Below are positions 47,720-52,980 of a stretch of 64,000 nt of DNA, in pieces. Position 1 is the stretch's first letter; each line of letters begins with the position of its first letter. This DNA comes from a bacterium (lineage in GTDB: Bacteria > Patescibacteriota > Patescibacteriia > Patescibacteriales > UBA12465): the NCBI GenBank assembly GCA_035402825.1, contig DAONDZ010000004.1:8456-72455 (forward strand), read 5' to 3'. The notes below the pieces were generated by a model. It saw only the letters and a program-made list of their open reading frames with translations. It was not told the origin of the DNA and did not search any database. The position numbers were made by a program, and so were the translations under genes.

Positions 47720-48583
47720 TTATATCAAATCAGACAAACAAAAAAAATCCATGGCGGTCCTTAGAGTCTTGCTCCCCACCTCTTCTTGGCTTAATCCCTT
47801 CACTTCCCCAATTTTTTTAGCTACGTATTGGACATAGGCTGGCTCATTCCGCTTCCCGCGCAAAGGCACTGGCGTCAAGTAGGGAGAGTCGGTTTCAATC
47901 ATCATTTTTTCCAAAGGGATTTCTTTAATCACCTCATCCCATTGATGACTGAAAGTAATAATACCGGTGAAAGAAATTAACAACCCGAGATCAATATACT
48001 TTCGCGCTAAATTTAAATCGCCCGAAAAACAATGAATGACTCCCCAAGGTTTTTCCCCCAGACCATTCTTTGCTTGATAATCTTGTAATAAAGGATAAAG
48101 ATCGTCATGAGCTTCACGACAATGAATAATAACTGGTAAATTTAGCTCTTGGGCTAAGTCTAGTTGTCGAATAAAGACTTCTTTCTGTTTTTGTTTCTGT
48201 AAATCGGCATCTTTATTCGGATTGAGGTGATAATAATCCAAACCGACCTCACCAATAGCAACCACCTTAGGGCTCTTCCCTAGATCCAGATATTCTTGAT
48301 AATTAAACTCCTCACCACGAGACTGGAAGGCATAATCGCCTTCTTCGCTGTGATTTTCCACTAACGCTTGCTCTAAATGAATCGGATGCAGACCAATAGT
48401 GGCATAAACACCGCTTGGATGTTTTTGCGCGCGATCAATAGCACGTTTTGAAGTTTTAGTTTCCGAACCGACAATAATAACGGCGGTCTTAGCCGCCAAA
48501 GATCGGTCCAGTGCTTGATCAGCGTCCTCTTGAAAATCTTTAAAATTCAAATGGCAGTGAGTATCAATATATTGATAATTCAT
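47720..48583 (-). CDS. TatD-family metal-dependent hydrolase/DNase
   Basis: IDTHCHLNF, IGEVGLDY, IHCR, HCFSG, ETDSPYL. Confidence 0.85.
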   Translation of the reverse strand: MNYQYIDTHCHLNFKDFQEDADQALDRSLAAKTAVIIVGSETKTSKRAIDRAQKHPSGVYATIGLHPIHLEQALVENHSEEGDYAFQSRGEEFNYQEYLDLGKSPKVVAIGEVGLDYYHLNPNKDADLQKQKQKEVFIRQLDLAQELNLPVIIHCREAHDDLYPLLQDYQAKNGLGEKPWGVIHCFSGDLNLARKYIDLGLLISFTGIITFSHQWDEVIKEIPLEKMMIETDSPYLTPVPLRGKRNEPAYVQYVAKKIGEVKGLSQEEVGSKTLRTAMDFFCLSDLI

Positions 48584-48584
48584 A

Positions 48585-49649
48585 TTAGATGTTTAACCCT
48601 TCCAAAACTTTTTCCGCTCCCCGACTGATATTTTTAGGAATAATAATTTTAATATTTACCAAATGATCGCCGCGGCCACGACTATGCAGACGATGCGATC
48701 CATGCTCCTTGATCCTGAAAGTAGTATTGGGTTGGGTGCCAGCTGGAATTTTTAAAGTCACCGGTCCATCAACCGTATCGACTTCAATCTTATCTCCTAA
48801 AATGGCCTGCTTAACCCCGATTTCTTCTTGGCTTAAAATATTATCATTATCCCGAACAAATTTCTTGTGCTCTTTGACCCTGATATGCAAGAATAGATCA
48901 CCAAAGTTTCCACCCTTTACCCCGGCCTCACCTTGATCCTTCAATCTGATAGTCTCCCCATTGTTAATCCCGGCTGGAATTTTTACCTTTATCTTGGCCT
49001 GCTCGCGAACTATACCGCGGCCAGAGCATTGGTCGCAGAGACGTGAATATTTTTTCCCCTCTCCCTGACAATCAGGACAAATGGTTTCTACTTGGACACT
49101 GCCTAAAATAGTCCGTTGCAAACGCACCACGCGACCACGACCGCCGCAACTGCGACAATCCTCCACTTTAGCCTTGGGGTCGCCACCGGTCCCTCGACAA
49201 TCAGGACAAACGGTATGGCGCTGATAGCTAATCTCTTTTTGGGTACCAAAAACCGCTTCGGCGAAATCAATGGTTAAAGCCATTTCCAGACTACGGCCAT
49301 CGTGATTAGGCGTAGCACTACGACGACCTTGGCCGAAGCCAAACATATCAGAAAAACCACCAAACATATCACCGATATCACCAAAATCGAAATTAGCGTT
49401 TCCCTGATTGAAGTTCTGCCAATTAAACCCATTGCCGCCGGAGAAAGACTCCGAACCGAAGCGGTCATACTGCTGGCGCTTCTCGGGATTGTTGAGGACT
49501 TGATAGGCTTCATTAATTTCCTTAAATTTTTCTTGATCACCGCCTTTGTCCGGATGATGCTCATGAGCCAACTTACGGAAAGCAACCTTAATCTGATCAG
49601 CATTGGCTGATTTATCAACTCCTAAAATTTTATAATAATCCTTGGACAT
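48585..49649 (-). CDS. dnaJ: Chaperone DnaJ
   Basis: J-domain with HPD, G/F region, four CxxCxGxG repeats. Confidence 0.95.
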   Translation of the reverse strand: MSKDYYKILGVDKSANADQIKVAFRKLAHEHHPDKGGDQEKFKEINEAYQVLNNPEKRQQYDRFGSESFSGGNGFNWQNFNQGNANFDFGDIGDMFGGFSDMFGFGQGRRSATPNHDGRSLEMALTIDFAEAVFGTQKEISYQRHTVCPDCRGTGGDPKAKVEDCRSCGGRGRVVRLQRTILGSVQVETICPDCQGEGKKYSRLCDQCSGRGIVREQAKIKVKIPAGINNGETIRLKDQGEAGVKGGNFGDLFLHIRVKEHKKFVRDNDNILSQEEIGVKQAILGDKIEVDTVDGPVTLKIPAGTQPNTTFRIKEHGSHRLHSRGRGDHLVNIKIIIPKNISRGAEKVLEGLNI

Positions 49650-49721
49650 AAATAAAAGGTGGATTTAATAAGTCTTAAATTATTCTTTAGCGTTTCTTCA
49701 TGACCTATTTGTAATAATAAT

Positions 49722-49795
49722 TCTGTGGGGGCGGCAGGCGCAAGACTGGACTCGTCACTCTAAGCCTTCCGGGTTCAACTCCCGGCGCCTCCACA
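49722..49795 (+). ncRNA. Candidate tRNA-Ala/tmRNA-like minihelix RNA (acceptor + T-arm only)
   Basis: 11-bp closing helix ctgtgggggcg/cgcctccacag (G:U at acceptor position 3:70), T-arm ccggg-ttcaact-cccgg, no D or anticodon arm; antisense to dnaK-dnaJ spacer. Confidence 0.3.
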
Positions 49796-49871
49796 GGGAG
49801 AAAATTGACTTTCTCTCTAAAAAGACTATACTAATATCAAGTGACGAGTCTATACTTCGCCTGTAAGGCAA

Positions 49872-49899
49872 TAAAAACTACCCCGTCAGGGGTGGTTTT
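49872..49899. terminator. Bidirectional terminator after dnaK
   Basis: ctacccc-gtca-ggggtgg with A-run/T-run. Confidence 0.75.
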
Positions 49900-49912
49900 T
49901 ATATTAGCCTAA

Positions 49913-51802
49913 TTATTTCTTATCTTCCACTTCGCCCTCCACTACATTTTCTTCATTTTTAGGAGTCTCACCGGCAGCCGGCTGTTCATTATTCGGTTGC
50001 GCATTATTCTGATACATAGCAGTACCAATTCTTTGCGCCACAACAGTCAGTTCTTCCAATTTCTTTTTCATCTCTTCATACTGCTCGCCGTCTTTAACCG
50101 CTTTTAGGGCCGCTAATTTTTCTTCCAATTCAGTCTTGTCTTCCGGCTTCATTTTATCGCCGCTTTCCTTGATTAGTTTATCAGTGGAAAAGCAAACCGC
50201 ATCAGCCTGATTCTTGATATCAATATTTTCTCGTTTTTTCTTATCTTCTTCAGCATGTAGTTCGGCTTCCTTCTTCATCTTCTCCACTTCTTCTTTAGAC
50301 AATCCGGAAGAAGCGGTAATGGTGATCTGCTGTTTTTTGCCGGTCGCCTTGTCAGTGGCAGAAACATTCAAGATGCCGTTGGCATCAATATCAAATTTCA
50401 CTTCCACTTGCGGCACGCCGCGCGGAGCAGACGGAATACCGTCTAAGATGAAACGACCCAAAGTCTTGTTATCTGCGGCCATCGGTCTTTCGCCTTGCAA
50501 AATATGAATTTCCACGCTCGGCTGATTATCAGCGGCCGTGGAGAAAATCTGCGACTTAGAAGTTGGGATAGTAGTATTTCTTTCAATTAAAGGAGTGGAG
50601 ACGGAGCCCAAAGTTTCAATGCCTAGAGTCAAAGGGGTGACATCTAAAAGCAAAATGTCTTTGACATCGCCTTGCAAGACACCGGCTTGAACAGCGGCGC
50701 CTAAGGCCACCACTTCATCCGGGTTAACAGTCAAGTTCGGTTCTTTGCCGAAAAACTCTTTGACTTTCTGTTGAACCAAAGGCATGCGAGTCATGCCGCC
50801 CACCATTAATACTTCATTAATATCATTGAGAGAAAAGCCCGAATCGGTTAAAGCCTTTTTGCAGGGCTCAATAGTCTTTTCCACTAAATCCATCACTAAA
50901 GATTCCATCTTGGCCCGAGTTAATTTTATCACCAAATGCTTGGGGCCATTCTGGTCGGTAGTGATAAAAGGTTGATTGATTTCAGTTTCGTTAGTAGTGG
51001 ATAATTCAATCTTGGCTTTCTCGGCTGATTCCTTGATTCTTTGCAAAGCTAAAGTATCCTTAGACAAATCAATGCCTTGATCTTTTTTAAACTCTTCAAT
51101 AATCCAATCAATCAAGCGCTTGTCAAAATCTTCACCGCCTAAATGAGTGTCGCCGTTGGTGGCGCGCACTTCAACAGTATCCGCAGAGATGTCCAAAACT
51201 GAAACATCAAAAGTACCGCCGCCTAAATCATAGACCACTATTTTCTGACCTTGCTTCTTGTCAAAGCCATAGGCTAAAGCAGCCGCGGTCGGTTCGTTAA
51301 TAATTCTTTTGACATCCAAACCGGCAATTTGGCCGGCGTCCTTAGTAGCCTGACGCTGAGAGTCATCGAAATAAGCCGGGACGGTAATAATCGCTTCGGT
51401 AATCGGTTCACCCAGTTTAGCTTCGGCATCGGCTTTCAATTTAGATAGAATCATGGCCGAAACTTCTTGCGGCGTATGCTCCTGGCCGTTCATTAAGACC
51501 TTAATACCAGAACCTGAAGCCACAATCTTATAAGGCATAGTTTCCTCATCGCGTTTTACCTCCGGATCGTCACTGCGGCGACCGATTAAGCGCTTAACGG
51601 CATAAACGGTATTTTCCGGATTAATCACAGCTTGGCGTTTGGCGGTCTGGCCGACTAAACGTTCACCGTTCTTAGCTACCGCCACGATAGACGGAGTAGT
51701 TCGATTGCCTTCAATGTTTTCAATAATTTTGGGAGCGCCGCCCTCCATGATAGCCATGGCGCAATTGGTGGTGCCCAAATCGATACCTAGAATTTTTCCC
51801 AT
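49913..51802 (-). CDS. dnaK: Chaperone DnaK (Hsp70)
   Basis: [17 protein letters not shown], full length 629 aa. Confidence 0.97.
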
Positions 51803-51814
51803 ATCTTTTTTATA

Positions 51815-52018
51815 TTAATTATTTTCTAAACTATTAATTAAAGTTTGATTATGCAGATCATTTTGAATCTCTAAATTATTCAAATCTGCTTTGATTTCCG
51901 CTTTCTGTTCTGGACTATTAAACCAGCCGCCTTGAGTAATGCCCCAAGTAAACAGCAGAGCGATAATAGCCACTGCGAGCAGTAAAACGATGAGACTGAA
52001 ACCTTTTTGACTGTTCAT
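51815..52018 (-). CDS. Pilin-like micro-protein (67 aa) lacking Glu5
   Basis: MNSQKGFSLIVLLLAVAIIALLF; 2 nt after hsp20 and 12 nt before dnaK. Confidence 0.5.
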   Translation of the reverse strand: MNSQKGFSLIVLLLAVAIIALLFTWGITQGGWFNSPEQKAEIKADLNNLEIQNDLHNQTLINSLENN

Positions 52019-52020
52019 AG

Positions 52021-52458
52021 TTATTTCTTTTGGGTTTGAATTTTAATGGCTTTCGGCTCGGCGGTCGGGGCTTTAGGGATAGAGACTTTTAAGATACCAT
52101 TAGCGGTAATGGCACTGGCCTTATCGCCTAAAACTTTGGCCGGCAAAGGAATAGAGCGGAAAAAGGAACCGCGGCGAATTTCTTGGCGGTAATAATTCTT
52201 GTCTTCCACCTCGCTCTTCTTTTCACTTTCTCCTTTAATGGTCAAAACGTCATTATCAACCGTCAAATCAACTTTCTCCGGATCAATACCGGCTAATTGG
52301 GTTTCCACTATCACTTGGTCTTTATCCTCATACATATCAATAGCCGGGGTAAAGCCCATTTGATTGCCGCGCACGGCGGGCAAATTCTCTGAGAACATTT
52401 TTTCCATGTCCTCAAAGGAATTGTCAGCCCAGAATGGAGTCCATTTGATTAAGGACAT
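52021..52458 (-). CDS. Small heat-shock protein (Hsp20/alpha-crystallin)
   Basis: alpha-crystallin domain, GILKVSIPK. Confidence 0.9.
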   Translation of the reverse strand: MSLIKWTPFWADNSFEDMEKMFSENLPAVRGNQMGFTPAIDMYEDKDQVIVETQLAGIDPEKVDLTVDNDVLTIKGESEKKSEVEDKNYYRQEIRRGSFFRSIPLPAKVLGDKASAITANGILKVSIPKAPTAEPKAIKIQTQKK

Positions 52459-52521
52459 AAATTAATTTAGGCAGAATTAAAACTTGAATTTCAAGTAGAT
52501 AATAATGCCGCTCTTTATATA

Positions 52522-52980
52522 TTATTCTTTAACTGTTACTTTAGCGGGAATAATCACTTTGCCTCTGAGGCGATAACCGGCTTTCACTTCTTTCTCCACT
52601 GTTTCGCCTTGGCCGGAAATAGCTTCCATGCATTCGGGATCAAACTTCTCTCCCAAAACCGCTATCTCGGTGACGCCCTTCTGTTCTAATAAATCCTTGA
52701 ACTGTTTTAAAACATGCTGCACGCCGACTACCCAGGGGCTCTGTGCTTCGGTCTCACTTAATCCAGTCACCGCTAATTTCAAATGATCATAGACCGGCAG
52801 CAGGTCGTGGAGAAAATCGGTCAAGGCGAATTGATAGAATTCGCTCTTGTCTTTATCTACTTGCCGCAACAGATTTTGATAATCAGCTAAAGCGCGGAGA
52901 TATTTCTCATTCAACTCTTTGTCGCCTTCCGGCTCCGGAGTTACTTCAGTTTCTTTTTTTTCCTCGGACATATTACTCAT
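52522..52980 (-). CDS. grpE: Nucleotide exchange factor GrpE
   Basis: YLRALADYQN, FDPECMEAI, operon context. Confidence 0.9.
   Translation of the reverse strand: MSNMSEEKKETEVTPEPEGDKELNEKYLRALADYQNLLRQVDKDKSEFYQFALTDFLHDLLPVYDHLKLAVTGLSETEAQSPWVVGVQHVLKQFKDLLEQKGVTEIAVLGEKFDPECMEAISGQGETVEKEVKAGYRLRGKVIIPAKVTVKE

What the first reader, a model, noticed from the sequence alone, without database searches (positions are those of the whole stretch)
49722..49861. Alanine-type tRNA/tmRNA-like minihelix, with a 12-bp long-range complement, antisense in the dnaK-dnaJ spacer
Seen on the + strand:
- an 11-bp helix, ctgtgggggcg (49722-32) / cgcctccacag (49785-95), whose inner 7 bp equal a tRNA-Ala acceptor stem including G3:U70
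- a canonical T-arm, ccggg-TTCAACT-cccgg (49768-84), followed by cgcctcc-A-ca
- a 5' side (GGGGGCGGCAGGCGCAAGACUGGA) that resembles the start of tmRNAs (GGGG..GA..GG...GAC.GG)
- only ~35 nt between acceptor and T-arm, so there is no D or anticodon arm and no tag ORF
- nt 49746-49757 perfectly complementary (one G:U) to 49840-49851, and 49735-39 complementary to 49857-61, a pairing that crosses the first helix
- a bidirectional terminator at 49872-99 that would end such a transcript

Established: G3:U70 is the alanine identity element shared by tRNA-Ala and tmRNA. tRNA-like-domain-only tmRNAs are known from jakobid mitochondria, and permuted two-piece tmRNAs occur in several bacterial lineages.

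Hypotheses: (a) a reduced or novel-permutation tmRNA-like RNA, (b) a relic of an ssrA or tRNA-Ala gene, or (c) a ~127-bp MITE-like insertion with 23-bp imperfect terminal inverted repeats (49735-57 / 49840-61).
Basis: partly seen in the sequence, partly recalled or inferred. Interest (0 to 1): 0.65.

Follow-up and report, generated by a model that had tools for sequence, protein, structure and literature searches.

The report
tRNA-like gene with matching antisense RNA
The dnaK-dnaJ spacer of this candidate-phyla bacterium carries an alanine-type tRNA-like gene followed by its own small antisense RNA gene, and similar pairs in other metagenomic contigs suggest a family of RNA-RNA modules for which I found no prior description.

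Summary
On the + strand, 49727-49793 encodes a 67-nt compact tRNA-like RNA ("RNA-1"). It has a 7-bp acceptor stem with G3:U70, discriminator A73 and a canonical T-arm.

It is not a tmRNA, a tRNA-Ala, a relic or a MITE:
- ARAGORN and Rfam do not call it.
- There is no tag ORF.
- It is single-copy in the window.
- It is about 91% conserved in a lineage whose dnaJ third-codon positions are only 42% identical.

The "long-range complement" is the 5' end of a second gene, "RNA-2" (about 49839-49905). RNA-2 has a near-consensus promoter (TTGACT-16-TATACT, 49805-49832) and ends at the terminator 49871-49902. Its first 24 nt pair with RNA-1 nt 9-33.

The same two-gene layout recurs in at least 14 further modules, in different gene contexts and GC 33-61%, sometimes in tandem. 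Their pairing sequences are unrelated but always co-vary.

Best reading: a dedicated antisense sRNA masks the D/anticodon-side half of an alanine-type tRNA-like effector, in an antitoxin-like layout. The pairing is supported by covariation; the function is inferred. I found no prior description in Rfam 15 or the paper library.

The parts
49710..49718 (+). P1: extended -10-like promoter element TGTAATAAT. The predicted start is near G49725, 2 nt before the acceptor stem.
   Evidence: Read. A TGn-TAnAAT-type element lies at the same distance from GTGGGGG in L006, L153, L240 and L224. This is a consensus match only; no transcript data are available.
49727..49793 (+). RNA-1: a 67-nt compact alanine-type tRNA-like RNA. 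Parts: acceptor 5' strand 49727-33; mini D-arm 49734-41; long imperfect arm 49742-68; T-arm 49769-85; acceptor 3' strand 49786-92; A73 at 49793. CCA is not encoded. The GU leader 49725-26 pairs with A73-C74.
   Evidence: fold -28.4 kcal/mol. Rfam gives sub-threshold hits only and ARAGORN gives none. The covariance model scores it 95.6 bits as the single window hit. It is 61/67 identical in L006. The 3' 25 nt equal tmRNA 3' ends.
49735..49759 (+). Target region inside RNA-1 (nt 9-33): the mini D-arm plus the 5' strand and loop of the long arm. This region pairs with RNA-2.
   Evidence: In the window, L006/L133 and L153, 22/24, 21/24 and 23/25 positions are paired. Six pairs carry changes on both sides.
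49795..49818 (+). Hairpin AGGGAGAAA-ATTGAC-TTTCTCTCT between RNA-1 and RNA-2. Its loop holds the -35 box of P2. It is kept in L006/L133 but not in other modules.
   Evidence: the repeat finder I6. Its role is unknown.
49805..49832 (+). P2: sigma-70-type promoter TTGACT-16-TATACT that drives RNA-2.
   Evidence: 10 of 12 consensus positions. L006/L133 and L153 have TTGACT-16-TATAAT. A promoter scoring 9-11 of 12 sits 3-8 nt before the complement in 12 of 13 modules; 10 of 13 are reached by 2% or fewer of shuffles.
49839..49905 (+). RNA-2: a predicted antisense sRNA of about 62-66 nt. Parts: antisense stretch 49840-63; A-rich linker; intrinsic terminator 49871-49902, which is shared with dnaK on the opposite strand.
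   Evidence: Duplexfold with RNA-1 gives -37.4 kcal/mol, against -18.3 +/- 4.5 for non-cognate pairs. The ends are predicted, not mapped.

Best explanation
The spacer holds a self-contained two-gene RNA module on the + strand, antisense to the dnaK-dnaJ operon.

Gene 1 is a compact tRNA-like RNA with the alanine identity set (G3:U70, A73, G1-C72, G2-C71), a canonical T-arm, a mini D-arm and a long non-canonical arm.

Gene 2 has its own strong promoter and a terminator. It makes an sRNA of about 65 nt whose very 5' end is complementary to nt 9-33 of RNA-1.

Proposed mechanism:
1. P1 transcripts run through both genes, because no terminator lies between them. RNA-1 is therefore made already masked in cis.
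2. tRNA-processing enzymes release RNA-1. CCA is added, and AlaRS can charge the acceptor/T minihelix.
3. RNA-2, made in excess from P2, pairs with the D-arm and with the 5' strand and loop of the long arm. This melts the elbow/anticodon-side half and leaves the acceptor/T minihelix intact. RNA-1 then cannot adopt an L-shape or act on the ribosome or SmpB, and the duplex may be cut by RNase III.
4. When RNA-2 falls, free RNA-1 acts. For the window copy, which has no canonical anticodon loop, the most likely action is as a tmRNA-TLD-like decoy for SmpB, EF-Tu or AlaRS. Family members with anticodon-like loops might instead act as alanine-inserting decoders.

Supported by sequence and comparison: the anatomy, the promoter and terminator arrangement, the pairing and its covariation, and the recurrence of the module.
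Inferred: processing, charging, the direction of control and the cellular effect.
For: Anatomy and strand:
- Sequence, repeats, fold, promoter scan and RNA-1 fold support the layout.
- In 12 cognate helices there are 19 G:U pairs on the + strand against 2 A.C.

Selection:
- RNA-1 is 61/67 identical between the window and L006, while dnaJ third-codon identity is 42%.
- Within the window subfamily, 6 pairs changed on both sides and 5 on one side with pairing kept.

Family:
- A metagenome scan for compact G3:U70 tRNA-like genes gave 72 with both flanks held. Twelve have a complement of 14 nt or more to their internal region 41-75 nt downstream. The controls gave 1 of 72 upstream and 0 of 72 after shuffling.
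- The internal sequences are unrelated between modules, yet each is matched by its own partner. Cognate duplexes are -32 to -44 kcal/mol; non-cognate pairs average -18.3 +/- 4.5.
- Every module has a promoter 3-8 nt before the complement and a terminator after it.
- Modules lie in unrelated gene contexts (aroC, rpsQ, groES, radA, glycosyltransferase-like genes). They occur in tandem in L153 (2) and L240 (3 T-arm/acceptor ends in a row; two full modules verified).
- Two members not selected by the search pattern (L153b, L240b) still have G3:U70 and A73.

Precedent for an effect: a TLD-only RNA strongly inhibits tmRNA, perhaps by titrating SmpB (PMC4131195).
Against: - There are no expression, end-mapping, charging or phenotype data. 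Promoters and terminators are consensus matches only.
- RNA-2 does not touch the acceptor/T minihelix, so it cannot block charging by itself.
- In the window, CCA is not encoded, and the GU leader pairs with A73-C74. This could hinder RNase P cleavage and charging.
- The module is absent from one related lineage at the same locus (58-nt spacer), so it is dispensable there.
- Family sampling was biased, because G3:U70 was imposed by the search pattern. Only two pattern-independent members test it.
- The window RNA-1 has no canonical anticodon loop and lacks the tmRNA GGAC/UUCGAC elements that contact SmpB. Its molecular target is therefore a guess.
- The reverse logic, in which RNA-1 acts as a sponge for RNA-2, is not excluded.
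Confidence: 0.45

Rival explanations
1. A new kind of reduced or two-piece tmRNA. RNA-1 would be the tRNA-like domain and RNA-2 a second piece joined through a P2-like helix. Together with SmpB they would rescue ribosomes without tagging, or with a very short tag.
For: - The 3' 25 nt are identical to those of genuine tmRNA genes: ARAGORN called 31 of 40 loci checked as tmRNA.
- The 5' end GGGGGCG-GCA-GG-C-GCAAGAC resembles GGGGGCG-NNN-GG-N-UUCGAC.
- TLD-only tmRNAs exist in phage DS6A, in organelles and possibly in two bacterial groups, and 2-aa tags exist.
- No canonical ssrA or smpB is present in this 64-kb window.
Against: - ARAGORN gives nothing and Rfam scores are far below threshold.
- RNA-2 has no conserved frame. 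Candidate frames differ between the window, L133 and L153, and run into the terminator.
- The helix joins the 5' strand to a downstream strand, which is not a circular permutation of tmRNA topology.
- The UUCGAC...GGAC closure seen in true TLD-only genes from the same scan (L144, L185, L204, L213) is absent.
- Tandem arrays of 2-3 divergent modules per contig and absence from a related lineage do not fit a single-copy housekeeping gene.
- 64 kb is far too little to say that ssrA is missing.
Confidence: 0.1
2. RNA-2 is the effector, a trans-acting sRNA with other targets, and RNA-1 is its stable tRNA-shaped sponge. Alternatively, the pair is only a cis-processing device in which pairing controls RNase P or RNase III maturation of one transcript.
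For: - The pairing and excess-promoter arrangement fit equally well.
- tRNA spacer-derived sponges are an established class (3'ETS-leuZ; from my own knowledge).
- No terminator separates the two genes, so a single precursor is likely.
Against: - The 5' antisense stretch of RNA-2 is hypervariable between modules and tracks only its own RNA-1. A seed directed at conserved mRNAs should be conserved.
- Apart from the antisense stretch, RNA-2 is little more than a linker and a terminator.
- The strictly kept alanine identity set, T-loop and GG of RNA-1 point to recognition by the tRNA machinery, which a sponge would not need.
Confidence: 0.12
3. The functional strand is the minus strand. The element would be a structured 5' UTR or promoter insert regulating dnaJ, for example a heat-sensitive structure.
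For: - It lies between the dnaK terminator and dnaJ.
- The minus-strand fold is also stable (-82.3 kcal/mol, z = -5.5).
- A promoter-like site TAGACT-16-TATAGT at 49852..49825 faces dnaJ.
Against: - The same module occurs next to unrelated genes.
- Wobble pairs are G:U on the + strand, which would be A.C mismatches on the minus strand (19 against 2).
- The T-arm, acceptor, P1, P2 and the terminator U-run all read on the + strand.
- The structure ends 75 nt before the dnaJ start codon and does not touch it.
Confidence: 0.05
4. A decaying relic of ssrA or tRNA-Ala, or a MITE-like insertion whose terminal inverted repeats are the two arms.
For: - Presence/absence polymorphism at the locus.
- tmRNA-like ends.
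- Imperfect inverted repeats.
Against: - Purifying selection and compensatory changes.
- A conserved promoter between the arms.
- A single copy in the window. The 19-nt core was not found in the viral or metagenome collections, although the latter lacks even the source contig; the whole module was not found in phage or plasmid collections.
- The left arm lies inside the tRNA-like fold, not at the edge of the inserted segment.
- No target-site duplication is visible.
Confidence: 0.03

Closest known systems
TLD-only (CDS-less) tmRNA-like RNAs: mycobacteriophage DS6A, jakobid mitochondria, Mallomonadaceae plastids
   Same: - About 65-70 nt.
- G3:U70 acceptor and T-arm.
- No tag reading frame.
- The 3' end is identical to real tmRNAs.
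- Such a molecule is reported to inhibit trans-translation, perhaps by titrating SmpB.
   Different: - It lacks the GG-UUCGAC...GGAC closure.
- It is not detected by ARAGORN or Rfam.
- It has a mini D-arm and a long variable arm.
- It always comes with a dedicated antisense sRNA gene.
- It can occur in tandem arrays.
- It lies in bacterial chromosomal intergenic regions.
Compact tRNAs (tRNA-Pyl, mammalian mt-tRNA-Ser(UCN)) and natural alanine-identity mistranslating or suppressor tRNAs (allo-tRNAs)
   Same: - One nucleotide between the acceptor and D stems, a small D-loop, an elongated anticodon-type stem and a very short variable region (compared with PMC7609411).
- G18G19-like GG and TΨC are kept.
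- Some family members are called tRNA-Leu(GAG) or tRNA-Asp(GUC) by ARAGORN although they carry G3:U70/A73.
- allo-tRNAs with alanine identity insert Ala at other codons (PMC5389517).
   Different: - 7/5 acceptor/T geometry, not 8/4 or 9/3.
- The window copy has an 8-nt loop and no recognisable anticodon.
- No antisense partner has been described for any of those tRNAs.
- Decoding is untested.
Adjacent antisense-RNA control pairs: type I toxin-antitoxin loci with trans-encoded sRNAs (tisB/istR, zor/orz) and type VIII RNA-RNA toxin-antitoxin pairs (SdsR/RyeA, CreT/CreA)
   Same: - Two neighbouring genes.
- A short, strongly promoted sRNA (60-85 nt, ending in a terminator) whose 5' end pairs over about 14-25 nt with its partner.
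- Pair-specific ('orthogonal') recognition.
- Multiple divergent copies.
- Patchy distribution among relatives.
   Different: - The partner is neither an mRNA for a toxic peptide nor a known RNA toxin. It is a tRNA-like RNA.
- Both genes are on the same strand.
- Toxicity and differential stability are untested.
mascRNA / MEN-beta tRNA-like RNA (best Rfam hit)
   Same: Acceptor-like stem plus T-arm with a shortened middle (24 bits, E = 0.01).
   Different: It is a eukaryotic family. The score is far below the gathering cut-off (42.5). The resemblance reflects only the generic tRNA-like shape.

Membership tests
tmRNA (ssrA), standard or permuted | Alanine-type acceptor stem (G3:U70) and T-arm forming a tRNA-like domain | tested here: met
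   The 3' 25 nt are identical to tmRNA 3' ends in many phyla.
tmRNA (ssrA), standard or permuted | Tag reading frame with a resume codon and a stop | tested here: not met
   ARAGORN finds no tmRNA. Frames in RNA-2 are not conserved between the window, L133 and L153, and they run into the terminator.
tmRNA (ssrA), standard or permuted | P2 helix closing the TLD (GG-UUCGAC...GGAC before the T-arm), pseudoknots, and a score above the family covariance-model threshold | tested here: not met
   Rfam scores: tmRNA 13.3 bits against 47, tmRNA_permuted 13.3 against 47. Nothing reaches gathering. The sequence before the T-arm is GCCUU, not GGAC.
tmRNA (ssrA), standard or permuted | Binding to SmpB and function in trans-translation | not testable with these tools
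   No smpB is in the window (tblastn). The rest of the genome was not available.
tRNA-Ala | G3:U70, A73 and a T-loop | tested here: met
tRNA-Ala | Canonical D-arm, 5-bp anticodon stem, 7-nt loop with a UGC/GGC/CGC anticodon, and detection by tRNA finders | tested here: not met
   ARAGORN gives none. The Rfam tRNA model scores below 13.3 bits and was left out as the lower-scoring clan member. The predicted loop is the 8-nt CUCGUCAC.
MITE / small non-autonomous transposon | Many similar copies per genome, inverted repeats at the element's termini, and a target-site duplication | tested here: not met
   One copy in 64 kb. No hit in four collections. The arms are internal to the extra segment, and no duplication flanks it.
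Type I toxin-antitoxin locus | A small toxic-peptide ORF whose mRNA is bound by the antisense sRNA | tested here: not met
   No ORF of 40 aa or more lies in 49650-49912. The sRNA's partner is the tRNA-like RNA.
RNA-RNA (type VIII-like) toxin-antitoxin pair | An RNA effector neutralised by base pairing with an adjacent, separately transcribed RNA | tested here: inconclusive
   The pairing, separate promoter, pair specificity and arrays are supported by sequence and comparison. Toxicity and stability are not testable here.
Compact G3:U70 tRNA-like + cognate antisense sRNA module (family defined here) | A tRNA-like RNA of about 67-69 nt with G3:U70/A73 and 34-38 nt between the acceptor and T stems; a promoter; a complement of 13 nt or more to its internal region starting 41-75 nt downstream; a terminator | tested here: met
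   The window meets all four criteria. Fourteen further modules: 12 in metagenome contigs (including L153b and L240b) and 2 in viral contigs.

The most novel reading that the evidence does not exclude
An RNA-only toxin-antitoxin or abortive-infection-type module. An alanine-charged tRNA-like RNA would be the toxin. It would poison translation in one of two ways: by inserting Ala at Leu, Asp or Arg codons (members with anticodon-like loops), or by blocking trans-translation or EF-Tu/AlaRS as a TLD-like decoy (the window copy). A labile, strongly transcribed antisense sRNA would be its specific antidote. Tandem arrays would hold mutually orthogonal pairs.
Probability: 0.2. Interest if true: 0.9.

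Novelty: categorically new. Interest (0 to 1): 0.8.

Why it matters
If the pairing and the alanine identity are functional, bacteria from ultra-small candidate-phyla lineages to GC-rich soil organisms carry a class of tRNA-shaped effectors. Each would be kept in check by its own antisense RNA.

That would add:
- a new way of regulating a tRNA-like molecule, by masking its elbow/anticodon half while leaving the chargeable minihelix;
- a possible new RNA-only addiction or defence principle acting on translation or ribosome rescue;
- a set of naturally orthogonal RNA-RNA pairs.

It also shows that standard tRNA and tmRNA finders and Rfam miss a recurrent family of alanine-type tRNA-like genes. 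The hypothesis can be tested directly with short synthetic genes.

Tried and rejected
- ARAGORN and Rfam (gathering and E-value modes) on the site gave no family.
- An exact 19-nt core scan of viral and metagenome collections found nothing. The metagenome collection lacks even the source contig, so this says little.
- The single genome-contig scan went on the T-arm/acceptor string. It showed tmRNA-type ends but gave no relatives and no organism names for the module.
- MAFFT/RNAalifold on 12 RNA-1 sequences misaligned the 5' ends, so a covariance model was used instead.
- The first module-scan script had a wrong T-loop pattern and was corrected.
- Tag-peptide reading of RNA-2: frames are not conserved. 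An apparent ...PA** frame in L207 is the antisense of the aroC stop region.
- CIRCE-like operator: the arms do not resemble TTAGCACTC-N9-GAGTGCTAA.
- Inverted paralogous tRNA gene: rejected, because the complement covers only the internal region and never the T-arm or acceptor.
- "Recent loss in a 97% DnaJ relative": withdrawn. That lineage is only about 80% identical over grpE-dnaK and shares a recombined dnaJ-tatD tract.
- BLAST of the module against phage and plasmid collections gave no match.
- Paper searches for a tRNA-like RNA with an antisense partner found nothing relevant.
Full report
**Setting.** The window comes from a Patescibacteria (Candidatus Falkowbacteria-like) metagenomic contig. 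This is based on DnaJ and DnaK homologs and the identical contig JGI 3300009692 Ga0116171_10000039. On the minus strand lie grpE (52980-52522), hsp20, a 67-aa ORF, dnaK (51802-49913), a 263-nt spacer, dnaJ (49649-48585) and tatD. The spacer is 100% identical in three further assemblies of the same organism.

**Checking the observation.**
- Acceptor stem: GGGGGCG 49727-33 pairs with CGCCTCC 49786-92, with G3:U70, and A73 is at 49793. Leader CUGU and trailer ACAG extend it to 11 bp (49723-33 / 49786-96).
- T-arm: CCGGG-TTCAACT-CCCGG at 49769-85.
- Spacing: 35 nt lie between the acceptor and the T stem.
- Long-range complement: 49742-59 / 49840-57, which grows to 22 bp (49735-59 / 49840-63) in the minimum-free-energy fold.
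- Terminator: 49871-49902.
- The + strand fold is far better than shuffles (z = -8.2).
- The key strings are unique in the window.

**It is not a known family.**
- ARAGORN calls three ordinary tRNAs in the window and nothing here.
- Rfam at gathering finds only those tRNAs.
- At permissive thresholds the site gives mascRNA at 24 bits (cut-off 42.5). The last third of the tmRNA model scores 13.3 bits (cut-off 47), and the tRNA model scores lower still.
- The 25-nt T-arm plus 3' acceptor string is nevertheless a genuine tmRNA 3' end. In species-representative genomes it hit at least 120 loci. ARAGORN called 31 of the first 40 as full-length tmRNA genes ending at the match. None of the 120 has the 5' acceptor strand within 60 nt.
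- So the ends are tmRNA-type, but the middle is not. There is no UUCGAC...GGAC closure, no pseudoknots and no conserved tag frame.

**Relatives at the same locus.**
- A lineage with 75% DnaJ and 90% DnaK identity carries the element at the same place. It comprises two strain variants in ENA ERZ27247363 (L006 and L133), and assembly breaks inside the element.
- dnaJ third-codon identity to the window is 42%. RNA-1 is 61/67 identical, and the flanks are barely alignable. This indicates purifying selection.
- Another lineage (L004, L005, L131, L132) has only a 58-nt spacer, consisting of the terminator plus 17 nt.
- I first read that as a recent loss. However, that lineage is only 74-84% DNA-identical over grpE-dnaK, against 94-98% over the 3' two-thirds of dnaJ. 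This is a recombination tract. The absence therefore shows only that the element is dispensable in one related lineage.
- More distant relatives (61% DnaJ) have a 307-336-aa ORF in the spacer instead.

**The turning point.**
- A metagenome scan for any G3:U70 acceptor followed within 18-40 nt by a GGGTTCRA T-arm reached its 120-locus limit. It returned many tRNA-like genes of about 68 nt with only 34-38 nt between the acceptor and T stems.
- One of them, L153, is a close homolog of the window RNA in an unrelated context. It shows the same downstream layout.
- For every compact tRNA-like gene I searched the 130 nt downstream for the best complement to its internal region. Twelve of 72 have 14-22 nt, starting 41-75 nt after A73. 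The controls gave 1 of 72 upstream and 0 of 72 after shuffling.
- The internal sequences of these modules are unrelated to each other, yet each is matched by its own downstream stretch.

**Anatomy shared by the modules.**
1. RNA-1 is 67-69 nt.
2. A short spacer follows, with no terminator.
3. A sigma-70-type promoter scores 9-11 of 12 consensus positions in 12 of 13 modules. Ten of 13 are reached by 2% or fewer of shuffles, including TTGACA-17-TATAGT in a 59% GC contig.
4. The complement starts 3-8 nt after the -10 box, that is, at the predicted transcription start.
5. After 20-40 more nucleotides comes an intrinsic terminator.

The second arm is therefore the 5' end of a separate sRNA of 62-87 nt, RNA-2. 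In the window these parts are P2 at 49805-49832 (also found), RNA-2 at about 49839-49905, and a terminator shared with dnaK.

RNA-1 has its own extended -10 element. In the AT-rich members it is placed to start transcription 2 nt before the acceptor stem. In the window this is TGTAATAAT at 49710-18. The same arrangement occurs in L006, L153, L240 and L224.

**Evidence that the two RNAs pair.**
- Duplexfold energies are -32 to -44 kcal/mol for cognate pairs and -18.3 +/- 4.5 for non-cognate pairs.
- In the window subfamily (window, L006/L133, L153), 22/24, 21/24 and 23/25 positions are paired. Six pairs changed on both sides and five changed on one side with pairing kept.
- Across 12 helices there are 19 G:U pairs on the RNA-1 strand against 2 A.C. 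This argues for RNA-level pairing on the + strand, and against a DNA-level inverted repeat or a minus-strand RNA.

**What RNA-1 looks like.**
- It has a 7-bp acceptor stem, one linker nucleotide and a mini D-arm. The D-arm has a 2-4-bp stem and a 3-5-nt loop containing GG.
- It then has a long arm of 6-9 bp, 0-2 nt, the T-arm, and A73.
- This compaction recalls tRNA-Pyl and mt-tRNA-Ser(UCN).
- In several members the long arm ends in a 7-nt CU-NNN-A/C-A loop. ARAGORN calls L141 tRNA-Leu(GAG) and two viral-contig members tRNA-Asp(GUC), although they carry the alanine identity set.
- The window copy has an 8-nt loop (CUCGUCAC) and is not callable.
- Two members that the search pattern could not have selected (L153b and L240b) still have G3:U70 and A73.
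- A covariance model built from the window subfamily finds one copy in the window and ranks L195 and other compact G3:U70 genes next.

**Distribution.**
- Modules sit beside unrelated housekeeping genes: aroC, rpsQ, groES, radA and large membrane proteins.
- The contigs range from 33% to 61% GC.
- They occur in tandem in L153 (two). L240 shows three T-arm/acceptor ends in a row, of which two were verified as full modules.
- Modules are rare among viral contigs: 2 clear cases among about 55 compact genes.
- None of eight module-bearing loci matches an Rfam family at gathering, except one RNA-1 that reaches the tRNA model at 31 bits.
- The window module has no match in phage or plasmid collections.

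**Interpretation.**
- Supported by sequence and comparison: a conserved two-gene RNA module in which RNA-2's 5' end pairs with the D-arm and with the 5' strand and loop of the long arm of RNA-1.
- Inferred from established rules: RNA-1 is handled by the tRNA machinery and is chargeable with alanine. G3:U70 and A73 suffice for AlaRS, even in minihelices.
- Inferred from geometry: pairing must melt the elbow/anticodon half while sparing the acceptor/T minihelix.
- My committed reading is that RNA-2 is a dedicated antagonist of a tRNA-shaped effector. No terminator separates the genes, so P1 transcripts carry their own mask. P2 adds excess RNA-2.
- What free RNA-1 does is speculative. For the window copy the best precedent is that a TLD-only RNA strongly inhibits tmRNA, perhaps by titrating SmpB. 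For members with anticodon-like loops, alanine insertion at other codons is conceivable. Alanine-identity allo-tRNAs do this in E. coli.
- Pair-specific recognition, divergent tandem copies and patchy presence resemble toxin-antitoxin logic, but no toxicity data exist.

**Rivals.**
- A novel two-piece tmRNA is unlikely. There is no frame, the topology is wrong, the modules occur in arrays, and one related lineage lacks the element.
- RNA-1 as a sponge for RNA-2 is not excluded. It fits poorly with the hypervariable RNA-2 seed and the strictly kept tRNA identity features.
- A minus-strand dnaJ regulator is contradicted by the wobble asymmetry and by the varied gene contexts.
- A relic or a MITE is contradicted by selection, covariation and copy number.

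**Limits.**
- All evidence is computational.
- Scans were capped at 120 loci.
- G3:U70 was imposed by the search pattern.
- RNA ends are predicted.
- The rest of the genome could not be examined, so the location of ssrA and smpB is unknown.
- The paper library is partial. I found no description of such a module.

Noticed in passing
L048:370-541 (JAJTYJ010000004.1, 'bacterium DTUPAT3'): A tmRNA-like gene of about 140 nt (GGGGGCGTAAGGGTTCGACAG ... GCC TAA ... CCGGGTTCAATTCCCGGCGCCTCCACCA) that ARAGORN does not call. It seems to encode only a one-codon frame, which would give an Ala-Ala tag. The 2025 tmRNA database paper mentions this class.
   Followed up: partly
L144:610-675, L166, L185, L189, L200, L204, L213, L217; viral L325:7440-7508: Classic TLD-only mini-tmRNA genes of 62-70 nt, with GG-UUCGAC...GGAC closure and no coding part, occur in metagenome and viral contigs. 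They lack the downstream antisense partner. Only nine 'standard, no CDS' tmRNA genes are listed in the 2025 database.
   Followed up: partly
L134, L137, L169, L170, L172, L190, L194, L206, L236 and others; many viral loci: Many compact G3:U70/A73 tRNA-like genes have no antisense partner, and their loops read like non-alanine anticodons. ARAGORN calls L172 tRNA-Trp(CCA) and leaves most uncalled. Some compact ones are ordinary tRNA-Ala(UGC) inside tRNA arrays of 17-23 genes (L149, L188).
   Followed up: partly
window 47720-52980 compared with L132: DNA identity to the lineage that lacks the module is 74-84% over grpE-dnaK. It rises to 94-98% over the 3' two-thirds of dnaJ and 92% over tatD. This is a recombination tract whose boundary lies near the spacer and the 5' part of dnaJ.
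   Followed up: partly
L007:1759-2976, L009:2048-2971: Relatives with about 61% DnaJ identity carry an ORF of 307-336 aa with no Pfam hit between dnaK and dnaJ, where the window has the RNA module. L007 also has a 39-aa ORF there.
   Followed up: no
window 49852-49825 (minus strand): A promoter-like site TAGACT-16-TATAGT faces dnaJ, and L133 has GGACTC-16-TATAAT at the same place. A dnaJ mRNA starting there, or reading through the dnaK terminator, would carry the full antisense of RNA-1 in its 5' UTR.
   Followed up: partly
window 51815-52018 (minus strand): A 67-aa ORF with an N-terminal methylation (pilin-type) motif sits inside the grpE-hsp20-dnaK heat-shock operon. It is conserved in position in relatives.
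   Followed up: no
L176:8866-9525, L145:848-1507: A HigB/HigA-like pair of small ORFs (115 aa and a 95-aa ORF that looks like an HTH protein; assigned by eye, no family search run) lies immediately upstream of the RNA module in two related contigs.
   Followed up: no
L240 (minus strand, oriented 114-1052); L153:446-640 and 737-930: Tandem arrays of modules: three T-arm/acceptor ends in a row in L240 (two verified as full modules) and two modules in L153. Each RNA-1 has a different internal sequence and its own matching RNA-2.
   Followed up: yes
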